Source: Mycolicibacterium bacteremicum (GTDB lineage: Bacteria > Actinomycetota > Actinomycetes > Mycobacteriales > Mycobacteriaceae). From it: 64,000 nt of DNA. The stretch lies in NCBI RefSeq assembly GCF_943913955.1, contig NZ_CALUAE010000021.1:8787-72786 (forward strand). Direction: 5' to 3'. The translations under genes were made by a program, and so were the position numbers. This document shows positions 41,813 through 61,784 of the stretch, piece by piece. The notes beneath the pieces are model-generated. The model searched no databases. It saw only the letters and a list, made by a program, of their open reading frames with translations, and had not been told where the DNA came from. Each line of letters opens with the position of its first letter. Within the stretch, counting starts at the first letter, position 1.

Positions 41813-41832
41813 GGTATTGGCATTCTCATTTT
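41813..41832. repeat. 20-nt direct repeat GGTATTGGCATTCTCATTTT, copy 1 (divergent SDR/mutase promoter region)
   Basis: Identical 20-mer at 41953-41972. Both are followed after 4 nt by AAGT. Confidence 0.7.
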
Positions 41833-41952
41833 CAGCAAGTGTCATAATCGCGCATGGCCTGCGAAGACGGCGCGGCGGGGGTCGGTCGGACTGCCTCGCG
41901 TCGGGGCCGGGCGAGCGGTTCCACGCTCTCAGGGTGCATGTTTTCCGTCTGC

Positions 41953-41972
41953 GGTATTGGCATTCTCATTTT
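41953..41972. repeat. 20-nt direct repeat GGTATTGGCATTCTCATTTT, copy 2 (21 nt upstream of mutase ATG)
   Basis: Perfect copy of 41813-41832. Contains the CATTCTC half-site shared with the palindromes at 46282 and 49212. Confidence 0.7.
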
Positions 41973-41992
41973 TTGGAAGTACGTTATCCAAC

Positions 41993-43570
<1,578 letters not shown>

Positions 43571-43571
<1 letters not shown>

Positions 43572-43978
43572 TGGCGACCCGAGTGCTGGTCGCCAAGCCC
43601 GGTCTGGACGGACACGACCGCGGCGCCAAGATCGTCGCCCGCACGTTGCGCGATGCCGGTTTCGAGGTCATCTACACCGGTATCCGGCAGCGCATCGAGG
43701 ACATCGTGTCGATCGCCCTGCAGGAAGACGTTGCCCTGGTGGGCCTTTCGATCCTGTCCGGGGCGCACGTGGCGATGACCAAGCGCACCGTCGATGCGTT
43801 GAATGCTGCCGATGCCGGTGACATCGCCGTCGTGGTGGGCGGCACCATCCCGGAATCCGACGTGCAGAAGCTGCTCGATGCCGGTGCGGCCGCGGTGTTC
43901 CCGACCGGTACCGCGCTGGACACCCTGGTGACCGAGGTGCGGGCGTTGACGGAGAAGGCAGGGGAACACGCATCATGA
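43571..43978 (+). CDS. acyl-CoA mutase small subunit, cobalamin-binding domain
   Basis: 135 aa with the DxHxxG motif (LDGHDRGAK). Its ATG overlaps the large-subunit stop (TGATG). Confidence 0.8.
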
Positions 43979-44931
43979 GACTGGGCGTGATGATCGGGGC
44001 CGAGCGCGGTGACATGTCGCGCAAGGTCACCAAGCTCGTCTCCGATATCGAGTGGGCCGACTCGGCGGGTCTGGCCACCGCGTGGATGCCGCAGGTGCCA
44101 GACGATTTCGACCTGCTGACCATGGTGGCGCTGATGGCCTCGCACAGCACCCGCATCGAACTGGGCACCGCGGTGGTGCCGCTGCAGGCGCAGCACCCCA
44201 TCGCCCTTGCCCGGCAGGCGCTTTCGGTACACGCGGTGTCCGGTGGCCGGCTGGCCCTGGGCGTCGGACCGTCGCACCACTGGATCATCCGGGACATGCT
44301 GGGGCTGCCGTATGACAAGCCGGCCGGCTACACCCGCGACTATCTGCAGGTGCTCAACGCGGCGATCGCCGGGCCGGGCCCGGTCGACGTGGAGAACGAC
44401 CACTTCACCGTGCACAACCCGACCGCCCTGGCCGCCGAGACGCCGATGCCGGTGTTGGTGGCCGCGCTCGGCCCGGTGATGCTGCAGATTGCCGGGGAGC
44501 ACGCCGACGGCACCTCGCTGTGGATGGCCGACGAGAAGGCCATCGGCGAGCACATCGCACCCAAGATCAACAAGGCCGCCGCCGAGGCGGGCAAGCCCGC
44601 ACCCCGTATCGTCGCCGGCATCCCGGTGACGCTGTGTGCGAACTCCGAGATCGAGTCGGCCAAGGAACGCGCCAACCGCATCCTGGCCGAGGCCGAGACC
44701 TCACCGAACTATCAGCGACTGCTCGACCGCGGTGACGCCCGCACGGTCGGTGATCTCTGCGCGGCCGGCGATGAGGAGTCGATCCTCAAGCGATTCAAGG
44801 CCTTTGCCGATGCCGGCGTCACCGACCTGTCGGTGCGCCTGCTGCCGATCGGGGACAACCGCGACGAGTTGATCGCGTCGAAGTACCGGACCCGCGAGGT
44901 GATCGCCGAGCTCGCCAAGGCGGTGTCGTGA
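43975..44931 (+). CDS. LLM-class (luciferase-like) F420/flavin-dependent oxidoreductase
   Basis: 318-aa TIM-barrel LLM pattern. Shares a 4-nt overlap with the mutase small subunit. Confidence 0.65.
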   Translation: MRLGVMIGAERGDMSRKVTKLVSDIEWADSAGLATAWMPQVPDDFDLLTMVALMASHSTRIELGTAVVPLQAQHPIALARQALSVHAVSGGRLALGVGPSHHWIIRDMLGLPYDKPAGYTRDYLQVLNAAIAGPGPVDVENDHFTVHNPTALAAETPMPVLVAALGPVMLQIAGEHADGTSLWMADEKAIGEHIAPKINKAAAEAGKPAPRIVAGIPVTLCANSEIESAKERANRILAEAETSPNYQRLLDRGDARTVGDLCAAGDEESILKRFKAFADAGVTDLSVRLLPIGDNRDELIASKYRTREVIAELAKAVS

Positions 44932-45968
44932 CCTCGGGTCCGCTGGCCGGCATCCGGATCATCGAGGTCGGTGTCATGCTGGCCGGTCCGTACGCCACCA
45001 TGTTGCTGGCCGATCTGGGTGCCGAGGTCATCAAGGTCGAGCCGCCCGGTGGGGAGATCTCCCGGCAGGTCAGCGACAGCTATTTCGCCAGCCTCAACCG
45101 CAACAAGCGCAGCGTGTGTCTGGATCTGCGCTCGGCCGATGGACAGGCCAGACTGGCCGAGCTGGTCGCGGATTCGCATGCGCTGCTGGTCAACATGAAA
45201 CCCTCGGCCATCAAGAAGCTGGGCCTCACCTACGAGGAGCTACGCGCACACAACCCGAAGATCGTCTGCGTCGCGCTGACCGGGTACGGGCTCGACGGCG
45301 GGGACGACCCGGCCTTCGACTATGTCATCCAGGCCGCGACGGGGGTGGCCGCGATGACCGGCGACCCGGATGCCCCGCCCACCCTGCCCGGCTACTCGGC
45401 CGCCGACAATTCCACCGGGCTGACCGCGGCACTGGGGTTGCTGGCCAAGATCGTCTCTGGCCAGGGTGGTCAGGTCGAGGTGTGCTTGCGCGATGTCATG
45501 CTCTCCCAGCTGAACTACCGGGCGGCGGCGTATCTCAACGACGGTGTGGCGCCCAAGCGTCACCCGTTCGGTGCGCACTCGTATTACGTTCCGGCGCAGC
45601 TTTTCCCGACCGCGGACGGGCACCTGGCGCTGTTCATCACCCATGACGGGTTCTGGCGGTCGTTCGCCGCCGAGGCCGGGGTGACCGGGTTCGCCACCAT
45701 GGCCGAGCGGGCGGCCGCCCGCGACGATGTGCTGGCCGTGGTGACGGCCGCGCTGGCCGGTGACACCGCGGTCAACTGGGAGCGCCGGCTCAAGCCGCTG
45801 GGCATCCCGGCCGCGGCGGTCCGCTCGTTGCCGGAGGCGTTGGAGGACACCCCGGAGGTGGTGGTGGACGCCGGCGATTTCCGGCTGGTGGCCAGCCCGA
45901 TCCGAATCGCCGGGTTCGATCCCGAGTACCGGCCCGCGCCGGTCTTCGAGGCGGTTCAGTCGTCGTAG
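44928..45968 (+). CDS. CoA-transferase family III (CaiB/BaiF-like)
   Basis: GIRIIEVGVMLAGPYATMLLADLGAEVIKVE is the canonical family III N-terminus. Confidence 0.8.
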   Translation: MTSGPLAGIRIIEVGVMLAGPYATMLLADLGAEVIKVEPPGGEISRQVSDSYFASLNRNKRSVCLDLRSADGQARLAELVADSHALLVNMKPSAIKKLGLTYEELRAHNPKIVCVALTGYGLDGGDDPAFDYVIQAATGVAAMTGDPDAPPTLPGYSAADNSTGLTAALGLLAKIVSGQGGQVEVCLRDVMLSQLNYRAAAYLNDGVAPKRHPFGAHSYYVPAQLFPTADGHLALFITHDGFWRSFAAEAGVTGFATMAERAAARDDVLAVVTAALAGDTAVNWERRLKPLGIPAAAVRSLPEALEDTPEVVVDAGDFRLVASPIRIAGFDPEYRPAPVFEAVQSS

Positions 45969-46252
45969 TTCACCGTCAGCGGGCCCGGATCGGGAATCGC
46001 CTGGCAGGTCAGCACGTAACCCTCGTCGACCTCGTCCTCGTCGAGCGCGTCGTTGACGCGCATGGTCGCCGAACCCTCGGTCAACTTGGCGATGCAGGTG
46101 CCGCAGTTGCCGGCCTCGCAGGCGAACGGGGGCGTCAACCCCGCACGGCGCGCGGTCTCCAGCAGAGTGTCGCCCGCCGCCGGCACTATCGTGGTGGCGG
46201 CGCCGTCGAGCACGATCGTCACTTCGTCGGCAGGCACGGGTTCAGCCGTCAT
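45956..46252 (-). CDS. [2Fe-2S] ferredoxin
   Basis: 98 aa with the CEAGNCGTC ... LTC cysteine pattern of plant/adrenodoxin-type 2Fe-2S ferredoxins, preceded by an AGGAGA Shine-Dalgarno. The track ORF 45956..47011 is a spurious extension. Confidence 0.75.
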   Translation of the reverse strand: MTAEPVPADEVTIVLDGAATTIVPAAGDTLLETARRAGLTPPFACEAGNCGTCIAKLTEGSATMRVNDALDEDEVDEGYVLTCQAIPDPGPLTVNYDD

Positions 46253-46281
46253 CGAGATCTCCTGGGCGTGTGATTCTGACA

Positions 46282-46304
46282 AACGGAGAATATCATTCTC
46301 CGTT
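46282..46304. promoter_or_regulatory. perfect 10-3-10 palindrome AACGGAGAAT-ATC-ATTCTCCGTT in the ferredoxin/acyl-CoA ligase divergent promoter
   Basis: The inverted repeat lies in a locally AT-rich 70-bp gap between divergent starts 46252 and 46322. Its core GAGAAT-N3-ATTCTC recurs at 49212-49228. Confidence 0.65.
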
Positions 46305-46321
46305 ACGGATAAGATAGTCGG

Positions 46322-47689
46322 TTGATGGCATCGACGACTGGATCGGTCCTCGCCTATGAGGGGCGGGAGTACACGCTGGCCGAGCTCGACGCGTTGGCCG
46401 AGGGAATGGCCGGCACGCTGGCGAAGCGCGGGGTGGGCGCCGGTGATCGGGTGGCGCTGATGTCCTCGAACCGGCCCGAGTTCGTCATCGCACTGCGCGC
46501 GGTCTGGCGACTCGGTGCCGCGGTCGTCCTGATCAGCTCGGCGTGGAAGCGCGCCGAGGTCGCCCACGCGCTGGCGCTGACGACCCCGGTCCTCGGTGTC
46601 GGCGACGTCGCGCTGCTCGGCGAGCTGCTTCCGATGGTGCACCTCGATGAGCCCATCATCGCCGGCTCCGGTGAGCGGCCGCCGGTCCCCGCCGATGCCG
46701 ACGCGCTGTTCGTCTTCAGTTCGGGCACCACCGGGATGCCCAAGGCGGTACGCCACACCCACGCGGCATTCGCTGCGGCGGTGCGGCATTGGCGCGCCGC
46801 ACTGGGGCTGGGCGCCGCCGACCGCATGCAGATCATGACGCCGCCCTCGCACATCCTCGGGCTGCTGAACATCGCCACGGTGCTCGATGCCGGCGCGTGG
46901 ATGCGGTTGCATCGACGGTTCGACATCGACCGCATGCTCGCCCACATCCAGGACGATCGCATCACCATCGAGATGGCCGTCGCCCCCATCGCCCTGGCCA
47001 TCGCCGCACACCCGGACCTGGAACGCTACGACCTGTCCTCGCTGCGCTACATCATGTGGTGCGCCACACCGGTCACCCGGAGTGTGGCCGATGCGGTCAC
47101 CGAGCGCATCGGCGTGCGATGGGTGTCCGCCTACGGGGCCAGTGAATTGCCGGTGATCGCCTGCTGCCCGATCGATGACGCCCGGCTCGACACCGTCGGC
47201 AAGCCCGTACCCGGCGTAGAGGTGCGCATCGGGGACCGCGGCGAGATCCAGGTGCGGTCCGAGTCGGTGATGGCGGGTTACCTACCCGCCGCCGACACCG
47301 CCGCCGCCTTCGACGAGGGCTGGTACCGCACCGGGGACATCGGCGAACTCGACGAGCAGGGTTGGCTGCGCATCACCGATCGGCTCAAGGAGATGATCAA
47401 GGTCCGCGGGTTCCAGGTGGCGCCCGCCGAGGTGGAGGCGGTGTTGCACGGGCATCCGGCGGTCGCCGACTGCGCGGTGTACGGAGTGCCCGACGAGGCC
47501 GACGGGGAGCGGGTGATCGCCGCTGTCGCCGCCGCCGGCGCGGTCACCGGGCAGGAGCTGATCGACTGGGTGGCGCAACACCTTTCGTCCTACAAGCGGC
47601 CGCGGCGGGTACTGTTCGTCGACGCCATCCCGCGACTGCCGTCGGGCAAGGTGCTGCGCCGGGTGCTGCGCGACGGCCTCACCGGATGA
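46322..47689 (+). CDS. acyl-CoA synthetase / AMP-dependent ligase
   Basis: 455 aa with FSSGTTGMPKAV, YGASE and a C-terminal GKVLRRVL. Confidence 0.8.
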   Translation: MMASTTGSVLAYEGREYTLAELDALAEGMAGTLAKRGVGAGDRVALMSSNRPEFVIALRAVWRLGAAVVLISSAWKRAEVAHALALTTPVLGVGDVALLGELLPMVHLDEPIIAGSGERPPVPADADALFVFSSGTTGMPKAVRHTHAAFAAAVRHWRAALGLGAADRMQIMTPPSHILGLLNIATVLDAGAWMRLHRRFDIDRMLAHIQDDRITIEMAVAPIALAIAAHPDLERYDLSSLRYIMWCATPVTRSVADAVTERIGVRWVSAYGASELPVIACCPIDDARLDTVGKPVPGVEVRIGDRGEIQVRSESVMAGYLPAADTAAAFDEGWYRTGDIGELDEQGWLRITDRLKEMIKVRGFQVAPAEVEAVLHGHPAVADCAVYGVPDEADGERVIAAVAAAGAVTGQELIDWVAQHLSSYKRPRRVLFVDAIPRLPSGKVLRRVLRDGLTG

Positions 47690-48413
47690 GTTCCTCGGAC
47701 CGCTGCACGGTCGCGGTGATGCCGGATGCGTCCTGGCCGGCCAGCAGCACGGCCGCCCGACCCATGGCCTCGGGTGGTTCGACCATCTCGGGTGGGACCT
47801 CGATACCGGCCCCTCCGGCCTGCCAGCCCTCGGTCAGCACCACCCGCGACGGGCTCAGGCAGTTGACCGCGATGTTGTCTGCCCGCAGGTCGTCGGCCAG
47901 GCCGAGGTAGAGCCGCTCGGCGGCGGCCTTGGACACCCAGTAGGCGTTGGCGCCGGGCATCCCGACACCGGTGGTGGTGATGGCGATCAGCGATCCCGCA
48001 CCACGCGCCCGGACATGCGGGATCACGGCCTTGGTGACCAGGAAGACACCGGTCAGGTTGACGTCCAGGCACCGCTGCCAACGTCTGAGCGGGGTGGACT
48101 CGATGGGTCCGAGCCACAGCACGCCCGCATTGGCCACAAGGATGTCGATCCCGCCGAATTCCGAGACCGTCGCTGCGACAGCGGTTTCGACCGAGTTCTC
48201 GTCGGTGACATCGCACGGCACGGCCAGCGCCCGGCCACCGGCCGCGGTGATGGCATCGGCCACCGAGCCGATGGTGCCGGGCAGTCGGCCCTGCTCCTCG
48301 GACCGGGCGGCGACGGCCACCGATGCCCCGGCGGCCGCGAGCGCTCGGGCGATGGTGGCGCCGATGCCGCGGCTGGCGCCGGCGACGAAGGCCGTCCTGC
48401 CCGCGAGGGTCAC
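47679..48413 (-). CDS. SDR-family oxidoreductase
   Basis: VAGASRGIGATIA and YWVSKAA. Confidence 0.8.
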   Translation of the reverse strand: MTLAGRTAFVAGASRGIGATIARALAAAGASVAVAARSEEQGRLPGTIGSVADAITAAGGRALAVPCDVTDENSVETAVAATVSEFGGIDILVANAGVLWLGPIESTPLRRWQRCLDVNLTGVFLVTKAVIPHVRARGAGSLIAITTTGVGMPGANAYWVSKAAAERLYLGLADDLRADNIAVNCLSPSRVVLTEGWQAGGAGIEVPPEMVEPPEAMGRAAVLLAGQDASGITATVQRSEELIR

Positions 48414-49174
48414 TTCGGCGGGAAGCGCAGCGCCCCGTCGAGGCGGATGATCTCGCCGTTCAGGTAGTCGTTCTCGATGATGCTCTGTGCCAGCTGTGCA
48501 TACTCGGTGCTGCGCCCCATCCGCTTCGGGAATGGGATCTGCGGGGCCCAGTACTGCTCGAGCTGATCGGCCGCCTTGCCGTAGGCGGGGGTGTTGATGG
48601 TGCCCGGGGCGATGGTGTTGACGCGAATGCCCAACGGGGACAGGTCCCGAGCGGCCACCAGGGTCATGCCGAGCACCCCGCCCTTTGCCGCGGCGTAGGG
48701 CAGCTGGCCGACCTGACCCTCATAGCCGGCGATCGACGCGGTGTTGACGATGACCCCGCGCCCGCCCTCCTCCAGCGGCTCGGTGCGGGCGATCGCCGCG
48801 GCGGCCAGCCGCAGCACGTTGAACACCGCGGTCAGATAGAACTTGACCGTGGTCTCGAACCCGTCGAGGCCGAGCGGGGATCCGTCCTTGCCGATCAACC
48901 GGCCGCCCGCGGCCGGACCGCCGTGGGTGTCCACCGAGATGCGCAGCGGCGCCAGCGCTTCGGCCTCGGCGATGGCGGCGTTGACCGACTCCTCGGAGGT
49001 GGCGTCGGTGCGAACGTAGGTCACCCCGAGCTCGTCGGCGAGCTTGGGGCCCTTCTCATCGGCCAGGTCGGCGACCACGACCTTGGCACCGGCGGCGTGC
49101 AGCCGTCGCACCGTCGCTTCTCCGAGCCCTCCCGCGCCGCCGACGACCAGCGCCGAGCTACCGGCGATATCCAT
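48410..49174 (-). CDS. SDR-family oxidoreductase (3-hydroxyacyl-CoA dehydrogenase type II-like)
   Basis: Start at MDIAGSSALVVGGAGGLG (49174). YAAAKGGV catalytic motif. Confidence 0.75.
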   Translation of the reverse strand: MDIAGSSALVVGGAGGLGEATVRRLHAAGAKVVVADLADEKGPKLADELGVTYVRTDATSEESVNAAIAEAEALAPLRISVDTHGGPAAGGRLIGKDGSPLGLDGFETTVKFYLTAVFNVLRLAAAAIARTEPLEEGGRGVIVNTASIAGYEGQVGQLPYAAAKGGVLGMTLVAARDLSPLGIRVNTIAPGTINTPAYGKAADQLEQYWAPQIPFPKRMGRSTEYAQLAQSIIENDYLNGEIIRLDGALRFPPK

Positions 49175-49211
49175 GTCTGCACCCCTTCTTGCAACTAGCA
49201 CTCTCTGCGGG

Positions 49212-49228
49212 GGAGAATAGCATTCTCA
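49212..49228. promoter_or_regulatory. palindrome GGAGAAT-AGC-ATTCTCA in the SDR/MeaB divergent promoter
   Basis: Same GAGAAT-N3-ATTCTC core as 46282-46304. Confidence 0.6.
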
Positions 49229-49281
49229 ACTACATCGAAGGGGCGGTGAAGGTGAACCACAGCGCCCTAGAGTCGCACGCA

Positions 49282-50160
49282 ATGACGATCACCGAACTTT
49301 TGGCGGCGGCCCGTGGCGGCTCGCTGCGCGCCGTCGGCAAGCTGCTCAGCCTGGTCGAAAGTGACCGCCGCGCCGAGGTGTTGGCCGAGTTGCCCGCCGG
49401 TCGGGTTCGCACCATCGGCATCACCGGCCCGCCCGGGGCCGGGAAATCCACCACGGTCGCGGTGCTGGTCGCGGCGTACCGCACGAGCGGATTGCGGGTT
49501 GCGGTGCTGGCCGTCGACCCGTCCTCGCCATACAGCGGGGGAGCTTTGCTCGGGGACCGGATCCGGATGGCCGCGCACATCAACGATCCGGATGTCCTGA
49601 TCCGATCGGTGGCCACCCGCGGGCATCTCGGCGGGCTGGCGGCGGCGGTGCCCGCGTCGATCACCCTGTTGGGGGCGCTGGGCTACGACCTGGTGGTGCT
49701 GGAGACCGTCGGTGTCGGGCAGTCCGAGATCGAGATCGCCGCGGTGGCGGATCCGACCGTGGTGATCCTGAACCCCGGTGCCGGCGACGCGATCCAGGCC
49801 GCCAAGGCGGGCCTGCTGGAGATCGCCGACATCATCGTCGTCAACAAGGCCGACCGCGACGGTGCCGAACAGACCGCCCGTGAGCTGCACATCGAGACCG
49901 GCCTGCCGATCCTCAAGATCAGCGCGACCCAGAACACCGGCATCGGTGAACTCGCGGCCGCCGTGGACGCCCACCACCGCGCCGATACCGCCGAGCGTCG
50001 TGGGGCCCGGGCCCGGCTGCAGATTCTGTCGCTGGCGCAGACCGCGCTGCGGACCCATCCCGGGCTCGACGAGCTGGCGGCCGCCGTGGCCGACGAGCAG
50101 CTCGACGTCTATGCCGCGACGGCCCGATTACTCGACGGTGCGCAGGTCAAACCCGAATGA
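49282..50160 (+). CDS. MeaB/ArgK-like G-protein chaperone for B12-dependent mutase
   Basis: P-loop GITGPPGAGKST, with VVNKAD (NKxD) and switch regions. The start is uncertain (ATG 49282 or GTG 49247); the track TTG at 49189 would read through the operator palindrome. Confidence 0.8.
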   Translation: MTITELLAAARGGSLRAVGKLLSLVESDRRAEVLAELPAGRVRTIGITGPPGAGKSTTVAVLVAAYRTSGLRVAVLAVDPSSPYSGGALLGDRIRMAAHINDPDVLIRSVATRGHLGGLAAAVPASITLLGALGYDLVVLETVGVGQSEIEIAAVADPTVVILNPGAGDAIQAAKAGLLEIADIIVVNKADRDGAEQTARELHIETGLPILKISATQNTGIGELAAAVDAHHRADTAERRGARARLQILSLAQTALRTHPGLDELAAAVADEQLDVYAATARLLDGAQVKPE

Positions 50161-50175
50161 GAATGTGGTTTCCAG

Positions 50176-50224
50176 TTCGTAGAAATGCTACTGTACGAAT
50201 TCGTTAATGAATTCTTCTTCGTAG
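50176..50224. promoter_or_regulatory. AT-rich operator-like region with TTCGTAG direct repeats and two GAATTC hexamers upstream of the DUF35 operon
   Basis: TTCGTAGaaatgctactgTACGAATTCgttaatGAATTCttcTTCGTAG: the outer TACGAA...TTCGTA arms are inverted, and TTCGTAG is repeated 42 bp apart. Confidence 0.4.
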
Positions 50225-50236
50225 TCGAGGAGCCTG

Positions 50237-50656
50237 ATGCAGAAGGCGCTTGCCCCCGAGATCTCCACCTGGCCCGATGAGAGCCCGCAACTCATCGGCA
50301 GCCGGTGCGGTGCCTGTTCAGCCGTGACGTTCCCGCGCCAGACGCACTGCCCCAGGTGCAGCAGGTCCGAGATGTCGGATCAGCTGCTGCCCCGTCGCGG
50401 CACCGTGATCGCCTGGACGACACAGGGATTCCCGCCTGGCGCACCGTACGCCGGCCCGACCGGCAAGGACTTCGAGCCGTTCGGGGTCGGACTCGTGCAA
50501 CTGGGCGATGAGATCCGCGTCGAGGGACGCCTCACCGAGAACGACCCGGAGAAGCTGAGTTTCGGCATGGAGGTCGAGCTGGTCATGGCGCCGTTCGCCA
50601 CCGATGCCGATGGCGATGAGCTCGTCACGTTCTGGTTCAAGCCGGTGTCGCGATGA
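50237..50656 (+). CDS. DUF35 OB-fold/Zn-ribbon protein (thiolase-associated)
   Basis: 139 aa with the Zn-ribbon CGACS...CPRC followed by an OB fold. Partner of SCP-x type thiolases. Confidence 0.7.
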   Translation: MQKALAPEISTWPDESPQLIGSRCGACSAVTFPRQTHCPRCSRSEMSDQLLPRRGTVIAWTTQGFPPGAPYAGPTGKDFEPFGVGLVQLGDEIRVEGRLTENDPEKLSFGMEVELVMAPFATDADGDELVTFWFKPVSR

Positions 50657-50697
50657 GCGCCCGCGCGAAGAGCAATCACACACGGAGGTACTGACAG

Positions 50698-51843
50698 ATG
50701 AGTAATGACGTTGCCATCATCGGTGTCGGCATCCACCCGTTCGGCCGGTTCGACAAGACCGCCATGGAGATGGGCGCCGAGGCCATCCAGGGCGCGCTGA
50801 CCGATGCGGGTCTGGAGTGGAAGGACATCCAGTTCGGTTTCGGCGGCAGCTATGAGGTGTCCAACCCCGATGCCGTGACCCGGCTCGTGGGCCTGACCGG
50901 CATCACCTTCACCAACGTGTTCAACGCCTGTGCCACCTCGGCCTCGGCGATCCAACAGACCGCCGACACGATCCGGCTGGGCAAGTACGACATCGGCATC
51001 GCCATCGGCCTGGACAAGCATCCGCGTGGCGCCTTCACCGACGATCCGGCCAAGCTCGCGCTGCCGCAGTGGTACGCCAACAACGGCCAGTTCGTCACCA
51101 CCAAGTTCTTCGGGATGAAGGCCAACCACTACATCCACACGCACGGTATCTCGGAGGAGACGCTGGCCCGGGTGGCGAACAAGAACTTCCGCAACGGCGA
51201 GCTGAACCCGAATGCGTTCCGGCGCAAGGAGATCTCCGTCGAGGAGATCATGGCCTCACCGGTGCTGAACTACCCGCTGCGCCAGTACATGTTCTGCGCC
51301 CCGGACGAGGGTGCCGCCGCGGTCATCATGTGCCGCGCCGACATCGCGCACAAGTACACCGACAAGCCCGTCTACGTGCGGGCCAGCGAGATCCGCACCC
51401 GGACCTTCGGTGCCTACGAGGTGCACGCCACCTCCGCCCCGTTGGACGAGGATCCCTCGCCCACGGTGTTCGCCGCCAAGGCCGCCTACGAGGCTGCCGG
51501 TATCGGGCCCGAGGACGTCGACATCGCGCAGTTGCAGGACACCGACGCCGGTGCCGAGGTCATCCACATGGCCGAGACCGGACTGTGCGCCGACGGCGAG
51601 CAGGAGAAGATGCTGATCGACGGTGCCACCGAGATCACCGGGTCGATCCCGGTCAACACCGACGGCGGCCTGATCGCCAACGGTGAGCCGATCGGTGCCT
51701 CGGGCCTGCGGCAGATGCACGAGCTGGTGCGGCAGCTGCGCGGTGAGGCGGGGGAGCGGCAGGTTCCGAACAGCCCGCGGGTCGGGTTGGCACAGGTGTA
51801 CGGCGCACCCGGCACCGCCTCGGCAACCATCCTGTCGCTGTAG
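50698..51843 (+). CDS. SCP-x / Ltp2-type thiolase-like protein (non-canonical thiolase/retro-aldolase)
   Basis: 381-aa thiolase fold with the N-terminal VAIIGVGIHPFGRF but lacking the classic thiolase CoA-binding loops. Co-operonic with the DUF35 gene. Confidence 0.7.
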   Translation: MSNDVAIIGVGIHPFGRFDKTAMEMGAEAIQGALTDAGLEWKDIQFGFGGSYEVSNPDAVTRLVGLTGITFTNVFNACATSASAIQQTADTIRLGKYDIGIAIGLDKHPRGAFTDDPAKLALPQWYANNGQFVTTKFFGMKANHYIHTHGISEETLARVANKNFRNGELNPNAFRRKEISVEEIMASPVLNYPLRQYMFCAPDEGAAAVIMCRADIAHKYTDKPVYVRASEIRTRTFGAYEVHATSAPLDEDPSPTVFAAKAAYEAAGIGPEDVDIAQLQDTDAGAEVIHMAETGLCADGEQEKMLIDGATEITGSIPVNTDGGLIANGEPIGASGLRQMHELVRQLRGEAGERQVPNSPRVGLAQVYGAPGTASATILSL

Positions 51844-51880
51844 GTGCCCCGCCCGGTAACGCCGTTCTCCGAGGAATAGA

Positions 51881-52795
51881 GTGCGATTCATGGCTGATAA
51901 CCCGGACTACCGCTTCGTCACCTACGAAACCCTCGACGAGGGCACCATCGCCCGGATCATGTTGAACCGGGCCGAGGCTCGCAACGCGCAGAACCGCGGC
52001 ATGCTCGTCGAACTGCACGAGGCGTTCCTGCGTGCCGAGGCCGACGACACGGTCCGGGTGGTGATCCTCGGCGGGCACGGCCCGATGTTCTCGGCCGGCC
52101 ACGACGTCGGGTCCAAGGTCCAGCTCGGCGAGTACTCGCCCGGCCCGAACCAGCATCCGAGCTTCACCGTCAACGGCGGCACCCGCGAGGGCGCCGAGAA
52201 ATTGATGCTGCAGGAATGGCATCACTATTTCGAGAACACCCGGCGCTGGCGCAATCTGCGCAAGATCACCATCGCCTCGGTGCACGGTGACGTCTACGCC
52301 GCCGCGCTGATGCTGATGTGGTCCTGCGATCTGATCGTGGCGGCGGACAACACCCGGTTCACCGATGTGGTCGGCACCCGGCTGGGCATGTGCGGCGTGG
52401 AGTACTTCGCACACCCCTGGGAGTTCGGCGCCCGCAAGACCAAGGAGCTGATGCTGACCGGGGACACCCTCTCGGTCGAGGAGGGCCACGCCCTGGGCAT
52501 GGTCTCCAAGATCTTCCCGGCCGACGAACTCGCCGACAAGACCGTCGAATTCGCCCGCCGCATCGCCAAGGTGCCGACCATGGCCGCACTGCTGATAAAG
52601 GAATCGGTGAACCAGACCCAGGACAACCAGGGTTTCTACAACTCGCTGAACGCCTGCTTCACCATGCATCAGCTCAACCACAGCCACTGGTCGCAGGTGC
52701 ACGAGAACGGTTTCCCGGTCGGGCTGGCCGAGGACGGCCTGGAGGACTGGCGTACCGCGGGTCCGCCGCAGGCCGCCGTCAAGGACCAGCCCTAG
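51881..52795 (+). CDS. enoyl-CoA hydratase/isomerase (crotonase) family protein
   Basis: Crotonase fold (RIMLNRAEARNAQN, FSAGHDV oxyanion region). Confidence 0.75.
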   Translation: MRFMADNPDYRFVTYETLDEGTIARIMLNRAEARNAQNRGMLVELHEAFLRAEADDTVRVVILGGHGPMFSAGHDVGSKVQLGEYSPGPNQHPSFTVNGGTREGAEKLMLQEWHHYFENTRRWRNLRKITIASVHGDVYAAALMLMWSCDLIVAADNTRFTDVVGTRLGMCGVEYFAHPWEFGARKTKELMLTGDTLSVEEGHALGMVSKIFPADELADKTVEFARRIAKVPTMAALLIKESVNQTQDNQGFYNSLNACFTMHQLNHSHWSQVHENGFPVGLAEDGLEDWRTAGPPQAAVKDQP

Positions 52796-52856
52796 CCTTT
52801 CTGTGCGATGTATGGCGTCTCACCCGTAATGAGTACGGGTGAGACGCCGCAAGTCG

Positions 52857-54479: not shown

Positions 54480-54499
54480 GGACTCGGTCCTTTCCGTTG

Positions 54500-55263: not shown

Positions 55264-55335
55264 ATTTTAGCACAGATGATTGCGCGAAAGCGAGAATGGG
55301 ATTTCCGCAGGGAACCCACGACGACGGGGAGAGGC

Positions 55336-56211
55336 ATGGCGGTGCGGCCGGAACACGAGAGTGTCTGGAGCGATCTTCAGGGTGTGGCGTTCTCGCAGGG
55401 GTACCTCGACGCGGGTGGCGTGCGGACCCGCTATCTGCATGCGGGAGAACGGAACACGCCCACGCTGGTGCTGCTGCACGGCTCCGGCGGGCACGCCGAG
55501 GCGTACGTGCGCAATCTGGAGGCGCATGCCGAGCACTTCTCCACCTGGTCCATCGACATGCTGGGGCACGGCTACACCGACAAGCCCGGCCACCCGCTGG
55601 AGGTGAGTCACTACGTCGATCACCTGCTCGCCGTGTTCGACGCGATCGGCGTCGACCGCGTGCATCTGTCGGGTGAGTCGCTGGGCGGTTGGGTCGCCGC
55701 GCGGGCGGCATCCGATCATCCCGACCGGATCGAACGCCTGGTCCTCAACACCGCCGGGGGGTCGCAGGCCGACCCGGAGGTGATGAAGCGCATCATCACG
55801 CTGTCCATGGCGGCCGCGGAGAACCCGGACTGGGATACCGTGCAGGCCCGCATCAAGTGGCTGATGGCCGACAAGTCCAAGGGCTACGACGATATCGTCG
55901 CCAGCCGTCAGAAGGTTTACCAGCAACCGGGTTTCGTCTCGGCGATGAGTGACATCATGGCGCTGCAGGATCCCGAGATCCGCGCGCGCAACCTGCTGGG
56001 GCCCGCGGAGTACGGCGCCATCACCGCGCCCACCCTGGTGCTGTGGACCAGCGATGACCCCACCGCCGATGTCAGCGAGGGCCGGCGCATCTCGGAGATG
56101 ATCCCCGGCGCCCGCTTCGAGGTGATGCCCGACTGCGGGCACTGGCCCCAGTACGAGGATCCCAAGACCTTCAACCAGTTGCACATCGACTTCCTGCTGG
56201 GGCGATCGTGA
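55336..56211 (+). CDS. meta-cleavage-product hydrolase (MhpC/BphD/HsaD-like alpha/beta hydrolase)
   Basis: Start at MAVRPEHES (GGGGAGAGG Shine-Dalgarno). Has the HGSGG oxyanion region, the nucleophile elbow GESLGG, and a C-terminal DCGHWPQYE...FNQL like E. coli MhpC. Confidence 0.8.
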
Positions 56212-57860
56212 CCGACACCGACGTCCTGATCGTCGGCGCCGGGCCGGTCGGCCTGACGCTGGCCAATATCCTGGGCCAGCAGGGGGTCTCGACGCTGGTG
56301 GTCGAGGACCGCGACACCCTGATCGACTATCCGCGCGGCGTCGGCCTGGACGACGAGTCGCTGCGGACCTTCCAGTCGATCGGGCTGGTGCAGGAGATCC
56401 TGCCGCACACCGTGCCGAATCAGATCCTGCGCTTCTATGACGCCAAGCGGGAACTGCTGGCCGAGATGGCGCCCCCGGACGCCCGTTTCGGCTGGCCCAA
56501 ACGCAACGGCTTCGTCCAGCCACTGGTCGATGCCGAGTTGCTGCGCGGCCTCGACCGGTTCGCCCATGTGCAGGTGCGGTGGAGCACCCGGATGGAGAAC
56601 TGCGCCGTCGACGCCGACGGGGTCACCGTCGACCTGGTGTCCGCCGGTGTCACCGAGTCCGTGCGGGCGCGATACGTGGTGGGTTGCGACGGTGGGCGCA
56701 GTGCGACAAGGCATCTGATGGGGGTGTCCTTCGAGGGCACCACCTCGGCCACCCGCTGGCTGGTGGTCGACCTGGCCAATGACCCGCTCGGGCATCCCAA
56801 CAGCGAGGTCGGCGCCGACCCGGACCGGCCCTACGCCTCGATCTCGATCGCGCACGGTATCCGCCGCTTCGAGTTCATGATCCACGCCCACGAGACCGAC
56901 GAGCAGGTCGAGCAACCGGCGTTCATCGAGCGCATGCTGGCCCCGTTCGTCCCGCACCCCGACCGGGTCGACATCATCCGGCATCGCGTCTACACCCATC
57001 ACTCCCGCATCGCCGGATCGTTCCGGAAGGGCCGGCTGCTGCTCGGCGGCGACGCCGCCCACCTGATGCCGGTCTGGCAGGGGCAGGGGTACAACAGCGG
57101 CATCCGCGACGCCGCCAACCTCGGCTGGAAGCTGGCGGCCGTCGTCAACGGACAGGCCGATGACGCGTTGCTGGACAGCTACGATGCCGAACGGCGCAAG
57201 CACGCACGCGCCATGATCGACCTGTCCACCCTGGTGGGCCGGGTCATCTCACCCACCAACCGCCACGTGGCCACCCTGCGGGACAAGGTGATCCGCGCCG
57301 CGTCGGTGGTTCCCACCCTCAAGCGCTACGTGCTGGAGATGCGCTTCAAGCCGATGCCGCGTTATGACACCGGCGCGGTCGTGCACAACGAGTCCGCCTC
57401 GGCGGTGCCACCGGCAGGCACGCTGTTCATCCAGCCGGCCGTCGACACCCGGGTCGCCCAGAACGTACTGCTCGACGAGATCCTGGGCACCGGATTCGCC
57501 GTGCTCGCCTGGAACAACAACCCGCGTGCCCTGCTGAGCGAGGACACCTACACCCGCTGGAAGACGTTGGGTGCCAACTTCATCGAGGCCCGGCCGAACA
57601 CCCAGCTGCACTGGCCCGGCCACGATGACCCGGGTGTCACGATCGTGGGTGACCGCACCGGCGCGCTGAAGAGATTCTTCGACGCCCACGCCGAGTCGGT
57701 GCTCTTCCTGCGGCCCGACCGGTGCATCGCCGCCGCCTGCATCGCCCAGCTCTCCGATGCCACCAGCGCCCAGCTGTTCGGCGTGCTGCATCTCACCGGG
57801 GGAGGTGAAGCCGATGTCGCGCGTCGCCCTGTGCTGCATGTCGCACAGCCCCCTGCTTAA
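56208..57860 (+). CDS. mhpA: 3-(3-hydroxyphenyl)propionate/3-hydroxycinnamate hydroxylase MhpA-like FAD monooxygenase
   Basis: 550 aa, collinear with E. coli MhpA by recall ([80 protein letters not shown]). Confidence 0.8.
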
Positions 57861-58752
57861 CCTGCCCGGCCCGTCCGCGGATCTCTTGGGAGACATCACC
57901 GCGCAGTTGCAGACCGCGACGGCCTTCGTGCGCGATTTCGACCCGGAACTGGTCGTGGTGTTCTCACCCGATCACTACAACGGGTTCTTCTACCGGCTGA
58001 TGCCGCCGTTCTGCATCGGCACCGCGGCCACCGGCGTCGGCGACTACGGCACCCGGTCGGGCCCGCTCGACGTCGCCGCCGACATCGCGACCGCGATGGC
58101 CACCGCGGCGTGGGATGCCGGCGTGGACGTGTCACTCTCGGCGGCAATGGATGTCGACCATGGCACCGTGCAGCCGCTGGACACCCTCTTCGGCGACCGG
58201 ACACCGCCGATCGTGCCGGTGTTCATCAACTCGGTGGCCACCCCGCTGGGTCCGCTCAAGCGCGTCCGGGCGCTGGGCACCGCCATCGGTGAGTACCTGT
58301 CCGGTGTGGACAAGCGGGTGCTGCTGCTCGGCTCGGGCGGCCTGTCCCATGATCCGCCGGTGCCCACGCTGGCGACCGCACCGCCGGCCGCACTGGAACG
58401 GATCGTCGGCGGCGCACCGATGAGCGCCGACGCGCGGGCGGCACGCCAGGACGCGGTGATCGCCGCGGCGCACGCCTTCGCCCACGGCGACAGCCCGTTG
58501 CAACCGCTCAACCCGGATTGGGATCACGCCTTCCTGGACCTGCTGGACAACGGCCGGCTGGCCGAGGTGGACGGCTGGCGCAACGAATGGATCGCCGCCG
58601 AGGCGGGCAACTCCGCGCACGAGGTGCGCACCTGGGTGGCGGCCTTCGCTGCCCTGTCCGCACTCGGCGCGTACACGACCGAGCAGCGCTACTACCGCGC
58701 GGCTCCAGAACTGATCGCGGGCTTCGCGATCCGGACGGCGGTGCTTTCATGA
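57814..58752 (+). CDS. mhpB: 3-(2,3-dihydroxyphenyl)propionate 1,2-dioxygenase MhpB-like (class III extradiol, LigB family)
   Basis: The N-terminus [15 protein letters not shown] matches E. coli MHAYLHCLSHSPLV. Overlaps the mhpA 3' end by 47 nt; an alternative start is 57838. Confidence 0.8.
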
Positions 58753-60476
58753 GTGAGTCGGCAGCCCGGTTCGACCACACCGTCGACGTCCTCGTCGTCG
58801 GCTCCGGCGGTGGCGGCCTGACCGCGGCGCTGAAGGCCGCGGCGAACGGACTGGACACCCTGGTCGTGGAGAAGTCCGCCAAGTTCGGCGGTTCCACCGC
58901 ACTGTCCGGCGGCGGTATCTGGGTGCCCGGGGCGCCCGCGCAGCGCCGCGCCGGATACACCCCTGACCCGGACGGTGTCTTCGAGTACCTCAGGACCATC
59001 ACCGACGGGTTGGTCAGCGACGCCCGGCTGCGCACCTACGTCGACGTGGCGCCGGAGATGATGGACTTCCTGGAGCGCTGCAGCGACTGGTTCGAGTTCG
59101 TCTGGAAGCCGGGCTACGCCGACTACTATCCGGAACTGCCCGGTGGTTCCGAGCGTGGCAGCACCATCAATGTCCCGGAGATCGACCTGCGCCGACTCGG
59201 CGCGGAGGAGCAGAACATGCTCGCCCCGCTGGCGCTGGCGCCCAAGGGAATCTGGTTCGCGCCCAAAGACCTTCGGCTGTTCTACCAGGTGCGGCAGAAC
59301 TGGCGTGGCAAGGCCGTGCTGGTCAAACTGATCTGGCGGATGTTCCGGGCCCGGGTGTTCGGGGATCGGATGGCCGCCATCGGACAGTCACTGATGGCCC
59401 GGATGCGCCTGGCGCTGGCCGAACACGACATCCCGCTGTGGTTGTCGGCGCCGATGACCGAACTGATCACCGATGTGGACGGCCGCGTCGTGGGTGCGGT
59501 CGTCGAGCGTGACGGGAAACCGCTGCGCATCGCGGCCCGCGGCGGCGTCGTGCTGGCCACCGGTGGCTTCGATCACGACATCGGTTGGCGCCGACAGTAT
59601 CTGCCGCTGTTGGAGAAGGACTGGAGCTTCGGTAACCCGGCGGCACTGGGTGACGGGATCCGGGCCGGTGAGAAGGTCGGCGCGGCAACCGATCTGCTCG
59701 ACGAGGCCTGGTGGTTCCCGGCCATGTGCTGGCCGGACGGCCGGTTGCAGTTCATGCTCAACGAGCGGATGATGCCGGCCCAGTTCGTGGTCAACGGCGC
59801 CGGCGTGCGGTTCATCAACGAGGCGGCGCCCTACATGGACTTCGCGCACGCCATGATCGAGGGCCAGGCATCCGGTGTGGACCACGTCCCGTGCTGGCTG
59901 GTGACCGATATCAAATCCTTCCACCGCTACGTGGTCGGCGGGCATCTGCCGATACCGAAGGTGCCGTTCGCGCCGGTGCCGACCGGCCGCAAGATCCCGC
60001 AGGCCTGGCTGGATTCCGGCATCGTGGTGGCCGCCGACAGTTACGAGGAGTTGGCCACCAAGATCGGTGTGCCACCGCAGGCGTTGCGCGACACCGCCGA
60101 GCGGTTCAACAGCCTGGCCGCCACCGGACACGATGACGACTTCAACCGCGGTGACAGCGCGTATGACAACTACTACGGCGACCCGACGCTGACCAATCCG
60201 AACCTCGCGCCGCTGGGCAAGCCGCCCTATCTGGCGTTCCAGATCATCCTCGGCGACCTGGGTACCTCGGGCGGGTTGGTCACCGACGAGCACGCCCGGG
60301 TGCTGGGCGAGGACGGTGGCGTCATCGCCGGCCTCTATGCCACCGGCAATACCTCGGCGGCGGTCATGGGTCGCAGCTACGCCGGTGCCGGCGCCACCAT
60401 CGGACCCGCCATGACGTTCGGCTACGTTGCGGCACAACACATATCTGAGAATTCCAATAGAGAGGTAACCGCATGA
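58749..60476 (+). CDS. FAD-dependent dehydrogenase, KstD/fumarate-reductase-flavoprotein-like (second copy)
   Basis: Start ATG 58749 overlaps the mhpB stop. Has [20 protein letters not shown] and a C-terminal YATGNTSA. The track ORF 58518 is extended spuriously. Confidence 0.7.
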
Positions 60477-61783: not shown

Positions 61784-61784
61784 T

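What the first reader, a model, noticed from the sequence alone, without database searches (positions are those of the whole stretch)
46282..49228. Shared operator candidate GAGAAT-N3-ATTCTC in two divergent promoters of the mutase/MeaB cluster
AACGGAGAAT-ATC-ATTCTCCGTT (46282-46304, perfect 10-bp arms) lies between the ferredoxin and acyl-CoA ligase genes. GGAGAAT-AGC-ATTCTCA (49212-49228) lies between the SDR and MeaB genes. Both fall in short AT-rich divergent spacers. The half-site CATTCTC recurs in the 20-mer repeats at 41813 and 41953. Together these define a likely single-regulator regulon covering the mutase, ligase, dehydrogenases, ferredoxin and chaperone. The regulator is not obvious; candidates in cis are the TetR (37102), GntR (36327) and IclR (54500). 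The motif does not match KstR, KstR2, Zur, IdeR or CIRCE/HAIR consensus sequences as I recall them.
Basis: partly seen in the sequence, partly recalled or inferred. Interest (0 to 1): 0.6.

Follow-up and report, generated by a model that had tools for sequence, protein, structure and literature searches.

The report
Conserved operator with absent regulator
The two palindromes are real, strongly conserved protein-binding sites that tie a vitamin-B12 mutase gene cluster and a neighbouring ring-cleavage operon into one regulon, but the protein that reads them is probably none of the three regulators encoded nearby and is most likely a TetR-type repressor encoded elsewhere in the genome.

Summary
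Observation confirmed. GAGAAT-N3-ATTCTC lies at 46286-46300 and 49213-49227, about 3e-4 exact hits expected by chance. In 80 orthologous mycobacterial loci the core is exact in 70 of 79 Fdx/ligase spacers (the other 9 differ by one base) and in 63 of 63 SDR/MeaB spacers, while the flanks drift.

The operator is composite: an auxiliary box sits exactly 7 nt left of the core. Degenerate conserved sites also lie upstream of DUF35 (50159) and in the IclR/hydrolase spacer (55292).

The regulator guess is not supported. Each of the three cis regulators has its own different conserved operator:
- TetR: TAGCCGnnCGGCTA, also found in Nocardia
- GntR: CAATCCTTAnAAGGATTG
- IclR: MhpR-like GTGYA boxes

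The best candidate is a different FadR/KstR-like TetR, absent from this window. In the M. sphagni group it sits next to MeaB with the composite operator at its own promoter. A 58%-identical Streptomyces homologue with a near-identical DNA-binding domain has an exact TGAGAATATCATTCTCA in its divergent spacer.

The likely mechanism is repression by a dimer of dimers, relieved by an acyl-CoA. This is a new member of a known kind, of moderate interest.

The parts
46286..46300 (.). Site A core box GAGAAT-ATC-ATTCTC (perfect palindrome extends to 46282-46304), in the ferredoxin/ligase divergent spacer
   Evidence: Exact in 70 of 79 orthologous loci and one mismatch off in the other 9. All arm positions are invariant or nearly so, while the flanks vary.
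46264..46278 (.). Site A auxiliary box GGGCGT-GTG-ATTCTG. Its right half lies exactly 7 nt left of the core, so the box centres are 22 bp apart.
   Evidence: n[TC]TCTn lies at a 7-nt gap in 78 of 79 loci. The consensus auxiliary box GGCATT-GTC-ATTCTG resembles the mutase-promoter box.
49213..49227 (.). Site B core box GAGAAT-AGC-ATTCTC, in the SDR3/MeaB divergent spacer
   Evidence: Exact in 63 of 63 loci that hold both genes. The centre reads TANNNT in 100% of copies.
49191..49205 (.). Site B auxiliary box GCAACT-AGC-ACTCTC, 7 nt left of the core
   Evidence: [AG]CTCTC-type hexamer at a 7-nt gap in 67 of 69 loci. The TetR promoter of the M. sphagni group has the same kind of layout, with a 6-nt gap.
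41953..41967 (+). Mutase-proximal box GGTATT-GGC-ATTCTC (auxiliary type). It overlaps the inferred -35 TTGGCA of a promoter block (about 41952-41996) that ends at the mutase ATG 41994.
   Evidence: The block cGGTATTGGCATTCTCATTTTTTGCAAGTACGTTATCCnnnGATG is nearly invariant in the loci printed, including the divergent subgroup.
41813..41827 (+). Distal copy of the same box, in the SDR1/mutase spacer, 38 nt from the SDR1 ATG (41775), followed by TGTCATAAT
   Evidence: It is absent where SDR1-Lig2-hyp100 is absent (L067 subgroup).
50159..50173 (.). Site D, hybrid box GAGAAT-GTG-GTTTCC. It overlaps the MeaB stop codon and lies 64 nt upstream of DUF35.
   Evidence: Conserved as GAGAAT-RTR-GTTTCC upstream of DUF35 in all 12 window-group loci, L004-L015.
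55292..55306 (.). Site C, hybrid box GAGAAT-GGG-ATTTCC, in the IclR/hydrolase spacer, 30 nt upstream of the hydrolase ATG (55336)
   Evidence: It is an exact GAGAAT-N3-ATTCTC at this position in L016, L017, L036, L046, L052, L055, L063, L071, L072, M. goodii and M. grossiae, and a hybrid in many others.
41994..45968 (+). Target operon: mutase large and small subunits, F420-dependent LLM oxidoreductase, family III CoA-transferase
45956..49174 (.). Targets flanking sites A and B: 2Fe-2S ferredoxin (minus strand), acyl-CoA ligase (plus strand), SDR2 and SDR3 (minus strand)
49246..52795 (+). Targets: MeaB GTPase chaperone, then DUF35/ChsH2-like protein, thiolase-like protein and enoyl-CoA hydratase
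55336..63593 (+). Target operon downstream of site C: hydrolase, FAD_binding_3 hydroxylase, LigB dioxygenase, KstD-like flavoprotein, LLM, SDR, cyclase

Best explanation
The two palindromes are the high-affinity core boxes of a composite operator: a 15-bp auxiliary box, a 7-nt gap, then the 15-bp core GAGAAT-N3-ATTCTC. This operator marks every promoter region of one catabolic supercluster: the B12 mutase operon, the ferredoxin/ligase spacer, the SDR/MeaB spacer, the DUF35-thiolase-hydratase genes, and the mhp-like ring-cleavage operon.

The protein that reads it is most likely a FadR/KstR-like TetR-family repressor. This genome would encode it outside the window, so it would act in trans here. 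In the M. sphagni group and on a Streptomyces megaplasmid the same regulator is encoded in cis.

The repressor would bind as a dimer of dimers over the core promoter elements of the divergent promoters and block RNA polymerase. It would be released by a pathway acyl-CoA intermediate.

Shown: the boxes, their conservation, their positions, and their co-occurrence with that TetR lineage. Inferred: binding itself, repression, the ligand, and the presence of the TetR elsewhere in this genome.
For: Operator is real.
- The core is exact in 70 of 79 site A spacers (1 mismatch in the other 9) and 63 of 63 site B spacers across 80 species, while flanks diverge.
- Site B stays in the SDR3/MeaB spacer despite 3-8 kb of gene insertions nearby.

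Composite layout.
- The auxiliary half-site lies exactly 7 nt away in 78 of 79 and 67 of 69 copies.
- The site A auxiliary box has the same form as the mutase-promoter box.

Further conserved sites C and D.

Not an RNA element.
- No Rfam match.
- The arms are invariant with no compensatory changes, and there is no extended pairing at site B.

Regulator.
- In L030, L067, L068, L073, L074 and L080 a 217-aa TetR follows MeaB. Its own promoter carries [GAGAAC-GTA-ATTCTC], a 6-nt gap, then [GAGAGT-AGT-ACTCTa].
- Its 58%-identical homologue on Streptomyces sp. N50 plasmid NZ_CP137550.1 has a near-identical DNA-binding domain.
- That homologue has an exact TGAGAATATCATTCTCA in the spacer it shares with an ACAD-kinase-ADH-ACAD-ECH operon. 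The chance expectation there is about 5e-6.
- A second site with the auxiliary-7-core layout lies just downstream of it.
- Its closest solved relatives are YvdT, B. halodurans FadR (5GP9/5GPA/5GPC), Thermus FadR and, weakly, KstR.
- TetR-type FadR binds as a dimer of dimers and is released by acyl-CoA.
- KstR represses from palindromes that overlap -10 regions in divergent spacers.
Against: - This TetR is not encoded in the 64-kb window, nor within 10 kb of the ligase in about 70 of the 80 loci. Its presence elsewhere in these genomes is assumed, not shown.
- Only two independent contexts link the TetR lineage to the motif: the M. sphagni group and one Streptomyces plasmid.
- In L068 a second copy of this TetR has no clear site upstream.
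- No promoters pass an E. coli-type consensus scan, so the overlap with -10/-35 elements rests on the mycobacterial TANNNT rule, recalled from general knowledge.
- Site C always accompanies the IclR gene, which keeps that rival alive.
Confidence: 0.6

Rival explanations
1. The IclR-family regulator at 54500-55222 binds the GAGAAT boxes as a tetramer and controls the whole supercluster, including its own gene via site C.
For: - Site C lies in the IclR/hydrolase spacer in every locus that holds the IclR.
- Several genomes with perfect A, B and C sites have this IclR and no TetR within 10 kb: L005, L006, L046, L052, L063 and M. goodii.
- Hybrid sites use GGAAAT/ATTTCC, the half-site of the E. coli IclR box as I recall it.
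- Tandem sites 18-22 bp apart are common for IclR-family proteins.
Against: - By context (mhpC-A-B-like operon) and recognition helix (VHRTIAYRLL against LHRTTVRRLL) it is MhpR-like.
- Its spacer carries three alternating GTGYA boxes (55247-55275) like E. coli MhpR's GGTGCACCTGGTGCACA.
- Homologues at 48-51% identity with the same helix in Actinomadura and Pimelobacter sit beside plain mhp-like units. They have GTGYA-type repeats and no GAGAAT-type site.
- GAGAAT-N3-ATTCTC fits neither IclR-family consensus type.
- The M. sphagni-type loci keep the sites without this IclR nearby.
Confidence: 0.15
2. Another regulator, unlinked and not seen in any fetched locus, reads the boxes. The L067-type TetR would then be merely one of its targets.
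For: No regulator is present within 10 kb in all loci.
Against: - No Lrp/AsnC or other candidate is in the window.
- The exact palindrome re-appears next to the TetR homologue in Streptomyces, where the DNA-binding domain is conserved. An unrelated factor does not predict this.
Confidence: 0.17
3. The TetR at 37102-37680 or the GntR at 36327-37094 is the regulator.
For: Both are encoded at the edge of the cluster in this window. In most other genomes the TetR orthologue lies right after MeaB.
Against: TetR:
- A conserved TAGCCGATCGGCTA-type palindrome lies within 200 nt upstream of 31 of 38 orthologues. The window copy is TAGCCGCCCGGCTA as read on the plus strand, at 37691-37704.
- The same palindrome occurs upstream of the Nocardia orthologue (two exact copies plus one degenerate).
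- There the TetR accompanies an MFS/COX3/COX4_pro module, with no mutase cluster and no intergenic GAGAAT site.
- It is absent from many loci that keep perfect sites.

GntR:
- It is found only in the window's close relatives.
- It has its own palindrome CAATCCTTAnAAGGATTG.
Confidence: 0.04
4. The palindromes are not protein operators. They would be RNA hairpins in the 5' leaders, or simply promoter hexamers.
For: - In the window, site A can fold into a 10-bp hairpin (-12.3 kcal/mol).
- The palindrome centre reads TANNNT, a -10-like hexamer, in 84-100% of copies.
- Flank positions at site A pair somewhat more often than expected.
Against: - All arm positions are fixed in sequence, with no compensatory changes.
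- At site B complementarity does not extend beyond the core, and the median hairpin energy is only -4.5 kcal/mol.
- There is no Rfam match.
- A promoter hexamer does not need a perfect 6+6 inverted repeat, nor an auxiliary box at a fixed 7-nt distance.
Confidence: 0.04

Closest known systems
KstR regulon of mycobacterial steroid/lipid catabolism (TetR family; box TAGAAC-N2-GTTCTA, core TnnAACnnGTTnnA; PMC1995591)
   Same: - A short AT-rich palindrome with AGAA(C/T)...(G/A)TTCT half-sites.
- It sits mostly in divergent spacers of catabolic operons and overlaps core promoter elements.
- One repressor controls many operons, some unlinked to its gene.
- Some sites here use GAGAAC/GTTCTC halves.
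   Different: - Spacing is N3, not N2.
- The invariant base is T/A where KstR has C/G.
- The outer position is G/C, not T/A.
- The candidate regulator matches KstR only weakly (E about 1e-3; 23.5 bits against a cut-off of 280), so it is not a KstR orthologue.
- The targets are a B12 mutase cluster and an mhp-like operon, not the known steroid genes.
TetR-family FadR (YsiA) of Bacillus and Thermus (PMC5397183; PDB 5GP9, 5GPC, 3ANG)
   Same: - Among the closest solved relatives of the candidate regulator.
- It binds consecutive inverted repeats as a dimer of dimers.
- It represses acyl-CoA oxidation genes and its own gene.
- It is released by acyl-CoA.
- The Streptomyces homologue controls an ACAD/ECH operon.
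   Different: - Sequence similarity is low (E 1e-7 to 1e-4).
- The two boxes here are separated, with centres 22 bp apart.
- The ligand is unknown and is probably a specialised acyl-CoA, not a long-chain fatty acyl-CoA.
MhpR / IclR-family operators (PMC8222616; E. coli MhpR site GGTGCACCTGGTGCACA)
   Same: The cis-encoded IclR is MhpR-like and is divergent from mhpC-A-B-like genes. Site C lies in that same spacer. Tandem sites about two helical turns apart are typical of the family.
   Different: The GAGAAT boxes fit neither IclR consensus type. The MhpR-like GTGYA boxes in the same spacer are a separate element. Distant homologues of this IclR have no GAGAAT boxes.

Membership tests
TetR-family repressor operator (FadR/KstR-like) | Short (about 15 bp) inverted repeat conserved in sequence across orthologous promoters | tested here: met
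   The 12 arm positions are invariant or nearly so in 79 site A and 63-69 site B copies.
TetR-family repressor operator (FadR/KstR-like) | The cognate TetR gene lies next to a target and carries the operator in its own promoter | tested here: inconclusive
   Met in the M. sphagni-type loci and on the Streptomyces plasmid. Not met in this window or in most loci, where no such gene lies within 10 kb.
TetR-family repressor operator (FadR/KstR-like) | The operator overlaps the -35/-10 elements or the transcription start of the target promoters | tested here: inconclusive
   The boxes lie 25-40 nt upstream of start codons. The palindrome centre reads TANNNT, and the mutase box overlaps TTGGCA-17 nt-TACGTT. 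No promoter passes the E. coli-type scan and no TSS data are available.
TetR-family repressor operator (FadR/KstR-like) | Direct binding of the protein to the site, relieved by a small-molecule ligand | not testable with these tools
   Needs EMSA or footprinting and ligand titration.
KstR box / KstR regulon | Motif TnnAACnnGTTnnA (TAGAAC-N2-GTTCTA) | tested here: not met
   The spacing is N3 and the arms are GAGAAT/ATTCTC (compared).
KstR box / KstR regulon | The regulator is an orthologue of Rv3574/KstR | tested here: not met
   The candidate TetR scores 23.5 bits against the NCBIfam KstR cut-off of 280. Its matches to KstR structures have E about 1e-3.
IclR-family operator | Fits GKTYCRYW3-4RYGRAMC or TGRAACAN1-2TGTTYCA (PMC8222616) | tested here: not met
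   By inspection GAGAAT-A-N-C-ATTCTC matches neither consensus.
IclR-family operator | The motif travels with the regulator's orthologues and homologues that share the recognition helix | tested here: not met
   Homologues in Micromonospora, Actinomadura, Pimelobacter and Parafrankia have no GAGAAT-type site in their spacers. Within mycobacteria, site C does accompany the IclR.
Structured RNA element or intrinsic terminator | Compensatory base changes in the stem, a match to a known RNA family, or a T-tract after the stem | tested here: not met
   No Rfam match, no covariation, and no terminator-like site at A, B or C.

The most novel reading that the evidence does not exclude
An orphan, near-invariant composite operator defines an undescribed KstR-like regulon. 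It is governed in trans by a FadR/KstR-like TetR. The regulon joins a B12-dependent acyl-CoA mutase cluster to an mhp-like ring-cleavage operon with two KstD-like flavoproteins. That would be a complete, uncharacterised catabolic pathway for an alicyclic or aromatic compound with a branched carbon skeleton, widespread in fast-growing mycobacteria. Three other local regulators would each control only a small sub-module.
Probability: 0.5. Interest if true: 0.55.

Novelty: new member of a known kind. Interest (0 to 1): 0.45.

Why it matters
The result gives a precise, testable regulon map for a large catabolic supercluster of unknown function. The supercluster is conserved in well over a hundred environmental mycobacteria, including the industrial steroid converter M. 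neoaurum.

The operator boundaries tell which genes belong together: the mutase, ligases, SDRs, ferredoxin, MeaB, the thiolase/hydratase genes, and the mhp-like ring-cleavage operon. They also give a handle for finding the inducer, and so the substrate of an uncharacterised HcmA/MCM-like B12 mutase.

There is a methodological caution too. Three regulators encoded next to the sites are each better explained by their own distinct operators. Assigning a motif to the nearest regulator would have been wrong here.

Tried and rejected
- **Literature search for the motif string**: only EcoRI primer tails.
- **MSMEG_4879 neighbours and Mycolicibacterium + mutase + MeaB + IclR**: nothing relevant.
- **KstR3/Lcin1 lead**: Lcin1 is TCCCGGTSACCGGGA, which is unrelated.
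- **Rfam scan of 41000-56000 at E<=1**: nothing.
- **E. coli-type promoter scan at all four spacers**: no promoter hits, so the promoter geometry stays inferred.
- **Lrp/AsnC idea**, from a recalled consensus: no such gene in the window.
- **hyp100 and hyp87 as cryptic DNA-binding proteins**: no family hits, and the sequences are not HTH-like.
- **IclR as the binder**: this was my working favourite until distant homologues with the same recognition helix showed GTGYA repeats and no GAGAAT sites.
- **Metagenome scan with an IclR alignment**: it returned only close orthologues at 75-87% identity, so it did not reach other genera.
- **uORF between the two mutase promoter copies**: an ORF ending at the mutase ATG is kept in only 46 of 69 loci, with variable length. 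It is probably a by-product of the conserved promoter DNA (searches had frame bugs and were superseded).
- **Walking beyond the right end of the window**: only 2 kb more was available and it holds no regulator.
Full report
**Observation.** AACGGAGAAT-ATC-ATTCTCCGTT is at 46282-46304 and GGAGAAT-AGC-ATTCTCA is at 49212-49228. The core GAGAATNNNATTCTC occurs exactly twice in the 64-kb, 68% G+C window. Allowing 2 mismatches gives 4 hits against 0.46 expected, and none of 100 shuffles reaches 4. From hexamer frequencies about 3e-4 exact palindromes are expected. The 20-mers GGTATTGGCATTCTCATTTT at 41813 and 41953 are also real.

**Gene context.** Pfam, NCBIfam and independent gene calls on identical metagenome contigs give the following order:
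- GntR(+), TetR(-), DUF1295(-), hyp100-Lig2-SDR1(-)
- mutase large and small subunits, F420-LLM, CoA-transferase III (+)
- ferredoxin(-)
- acyl-CoA ligase(+)
- SDR2-SDR3(-)
- MeaB, DUF35, thiolase-like, ECH (+)
- KstD-like flavoprotein and IclR (-)
- hydrolase, FAD_binding_3, LigB, KstD-like, LLM, SDR, cyclase (+)

Site A lies in the 72-nt ferredoxin/ligase spacer and site B in the SDR3/MeaB spacer. The automatic MeaB start (TTG 49189) would cover site B. The low-GC3 codons there and the orthologue spacers point to a later start.

**Phylogenetic footprint.** A scan of one genome per species with the ligase protein returned 80 orthologous loci from Mycolicibacterium and Mycobacterium, at 67-94% identity. 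The closest are M. bacteremicum and M. neoaurum.
- The core is exact in 70 of 79 ferredoxin/ligase spacers and one mismatch off in the other 9.
- It is exact in 63 of 63 SDR3/MeaB spacers.
- Site B stays in the SDR3/MeaB spacer even where 3-8 kb of extra genes have been inserted nearby.
- The 12 arm positions are invariant or nearly so, while positions a few bases away are nearly random.

**More boxes and a composite architecture.** A third site lies in the IclR/hydrolase spacer. It is an exact GAGAAT-N3-ATTCTC in many species. In the window (55292-55306) and in many others it is a hybrid, GAGAAT-N3-ATTTCC. A fourth hybrid site, GAGAAT-RTR-GTTTCC (50159-50173), is conserved upstream of DUF35 in all 12 genomes with the window's gene order.

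In addition, an auxiliary box ending n[TC]TCTn lies exactly 7 nt left of the core in 78 of 79 site A copies and 67 of 69 site B copies. In the window these are ATTCTG at 46273-46278 and ACTCTC at 49200-49205.

The consensus site A auxiliary box (GGCATT-GTC-ATTCTG) has the same form as the mutase-promoter box (GGTATT-GGC-ATTCTC). The box centres are 22 bp apart, about two helical turns. That fits two dimers bound on one face of the DNA.

**The mutase promoter.** The proximal box is part of a 44-nt block, cGGTATTGGCATTCTCATTTTTTGCAAGTACGTTATCCnnnGATG. The block is nearly invariant in the loci printed, including the most divergent subgroup. I read it as -35 TTGGCA, a 17-nt spacer, -10 TACGTT, then about 8 nt to the mutase ATG, which would give a leaderless or nearly leaderless mRNA. 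This is an inference from the mycobacterial TANNNT rule. The E. coli-type scan finds no promoter at any of the four spacers.

The centre of the core palindrome reads TANNNT on the plus strand in 100% of site B copies and 84% of site A copies. That explains the asymmetric conservation of the "spacer" (A-N-C/T) and suggests the core overlaps a -10 hexamer.

**Not an RNA element.** There is no Rfam match at E<=1. There are no compensatory changes, because the arms simply never vary. At site B pairing does not extend beyond the core and the hairpins are weak.

**Which regulator? The three cis candidates.**

*TetR at 37102.* Its orthologue lies right after MeaB in most genomes, but it is missing from many loci that keep perfect sites. 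In Nocardia a 63%-identical orthologue sits beside an MFS transporter and a COX3/COX4_pro module, with no mutase cluster and no intergenic GAGAAT site. In M. monacense it is divergent from a similar module. In every context a different palindrome, TAGCCGATCGGCTA, lies just upstream of the gene. Nocardia has two exact copies plus one degenerate copy, and M. monacense has two exact copies. The palindrome is present, with up to 2 mismatches, upstream of 31 of 38 orthologues. The window copy is at 37691-37704. This TetR has its own operator.

*GntR.* It occurs only in the window's close relatives and has its own palindrome, CAATCCTTAnAAGGATTG, at 36297-36314.

*IclR.* It always accompanies site C, and for a while it was my favourite. 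However, its divergent operon (hydrolase, FAD_binding_3, LigB) corresponds to mhpC-mhpA-mhpB, and its recognition helix (VHRTIAYRLL) resembles that of E. coli MhpR (LHRTTVRRLL). Its spacer also contains three alternating GTGYA boxes (GTGCACA, TGTGCG and GCACAG, 55247-55275). These resemble MhpR's GGTGCACCTGGTGCACA and the three-box layout described for the family. Homologues at 48-51% identity keep the same helix. In Actinomadura and Pimelobacter they sit beside plain mhp-like units and have GTGYA-type repeats but no GAGAAT-type site. GAGAAT-N3-ATTCTC fits neither IclR-family consensus.

**A fourth candidate.** In six loci (L030, L067, L070, L073, L074, L080; M. sphagni and relatives), plus L068, the IclR and KstD-like genes are absent. 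Six of these seven loci show an unrelated 217-aa TetR following MeaB. L070 ends before that position.
- In those six loci its own promoter carries the composite operator: GAGAAC-GTA-ATTCTC, 6 nt, GAGAGT-AGT-ACTCTa.
- Its closest solved relatives are YvdT, B. halodurans FadR, Thermus FadR and, weakly, KstR.
- A tblastn search of plasmids found one homologue, 58% identical, on a Streptomyces sp. N50 megaplasmid.
- The DNA-binding domains are almost identical (TDFTVQEVVDRSxQSLRSFYLQFDGKHELLLALFEDAL).
- The spacer it shares with a divergent ACAD-kinase-ADH-ACAD-ECH operon contains an exact TGAGAATATCATTCTCA, about 5e-6 expected by chance.
- The spacer downstream of the gene has GCTCTC, 7 nt, GAGAGT-ACG-GTTCTC.

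So the operator travels with this TetR lineage across genera. The protein is not encoded in the window or in most fetched loci. In this genome it would have to act in trans.

**Mechanism (inferred).** TetR-type FadR binds consecutive inverted repeats as a dimer of dimers and is released by acyl-CoA. KstR represses many operons, often from palindromes in divergent spacers that overlap -10 regions. By analogy, the regulator here would occupy the auxiliary and core boxes over the divergent core promoters. It would repress both directions and be released by a CoA-thioester intermediate of the pathway.

**Comparison and novelty.** The motif is a near relative of the KstR box but is distinct from it: N3 spacing, and T/A where KstR has C/G. 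The candidate regulator is not a KstR orthologue. I found no description of the motif or regulon in the searchable literature. It is a new member of a known kind: a TetR-type operator and regulon. Two features are less usual. The cognate regulator is absent from the locus, and three neighbouring regulators each have their own separate operators.

**Caveats.** The link between regulator and motif rests on two independent contexts. The promoter positions are not mapped. Binding, the direction of regulation, and the ligand are all untested.

Noticed in passing
window 37691-37704 (minus-strand gene 37102-37680): TAGCCGCCCGGCTA as read on the plus strand, a TAGCCGATCGGCTA-type palindrome, lies upstream of the TetR. 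It is conserved upstream of 31 of 38 orthologues and upstream of the Nocardia orthologue (two exact copies plus one degenerate). In Nocardia the TetR accompanies an MFS transporter and a module of two unknown proteins plus COX3- and COX4_pro-like proteins. It is probably this TetR's own operator and regulon.
   Followed up: partly
window 36296-36315: Perfect palindrome GCAATCCTT-AT-AAGGATTGC in the acyl-CoA dehydrogenase/GntR divergent spacer. It is conserved as CAATCCTTAcAAGGATTG in L005 and L006. It is probably the GntR operator.
   Followed up: partly
window 55226-55275: The IclR/hydrolase spacer holds two further conserved elements. One is a set of three alternating GTGYA boxes (GTGCACA, TGTGCG, GCACAG; 55247-55275) resembling the E. 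coli MhpR site. The other is GAGAGTGATGCTCT (55226-55239), just upstream of the IclR start. The latter is present in 59 of 80 metagenome loci and looks like a degenerate GAGAGT-type box.
   Followed up: partly
window 41854-41997: A 47-codon ORF starts 5 nt after the distal TGTCATAAT, runs through the proximal promoter block, and ends in a TGA overlapping the mutase ATG. An ORF ending at the mutase ATG is kept in 46 of 69 loci, with variable length and a conserved tail GIGILIFCKYVIQ. It may be a leaderless coupled uORF or a by-product of the conserved promoter DNA.
   Followed up: partly
window 50195-50204: Perfect palindrome ACGAATTCGT, within a conserved stretch (GAAATGCTAyTGTACGAATTCGTTAAT) between site D and the DUF35 start, in all window-group loci. 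Its function is unknown.
   Followed up: no
window 41994-43978: The two-subunit B12 mutase is closest to 2-hydroxyisobutyryl-CoA mutase HcmA (PDB 4R3U, E 4e-152). It is only slightly closer to that than to methylmalonyl-CoA mutases, and it reaches no NCBIfam equivalog cut-off. Its substrate specificity is unknown.
   Followed up: no
window 52857-63593; also L084, L086: The mutase cluster is fused to an mhp-like ring-cleavage operon (hydrolase with HsaD as its best match, FAD hydroxylase, LigB dioxygenase). The operon also has two KstD-like flavoproteins, a 436-aa LLM, an SDR and a cyclase. This suggests one pathway for an alicyclic or aromatic substrate. M. goodii and M. grossiae have a similar arrangement.
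   Followed up: partly
window 49189-49281: The gene caller starts MeaB at TTG 49189, which places site B inside coding sequence. The first 20-30 codons have atypically low GC3, and orthologues show a Shine-Dalgarno sequence and start codon further downstream. The true start is probably GTG 49246 or 49252, or ATG 49282.
   Followed up: partly
L067 2812-2826 (also L030 3075, L073 2807, L074 2797, L080 3258, L070 1551): The M. sphagni-type loci have an extra GAGAAC-N3-ATTCTC site. In L067 it lies between an aldehyde dehydrogenase gene (minus strand) and a small 94-aa gene (plus strand), so the regulon differs between lineages.
   Followed up: no
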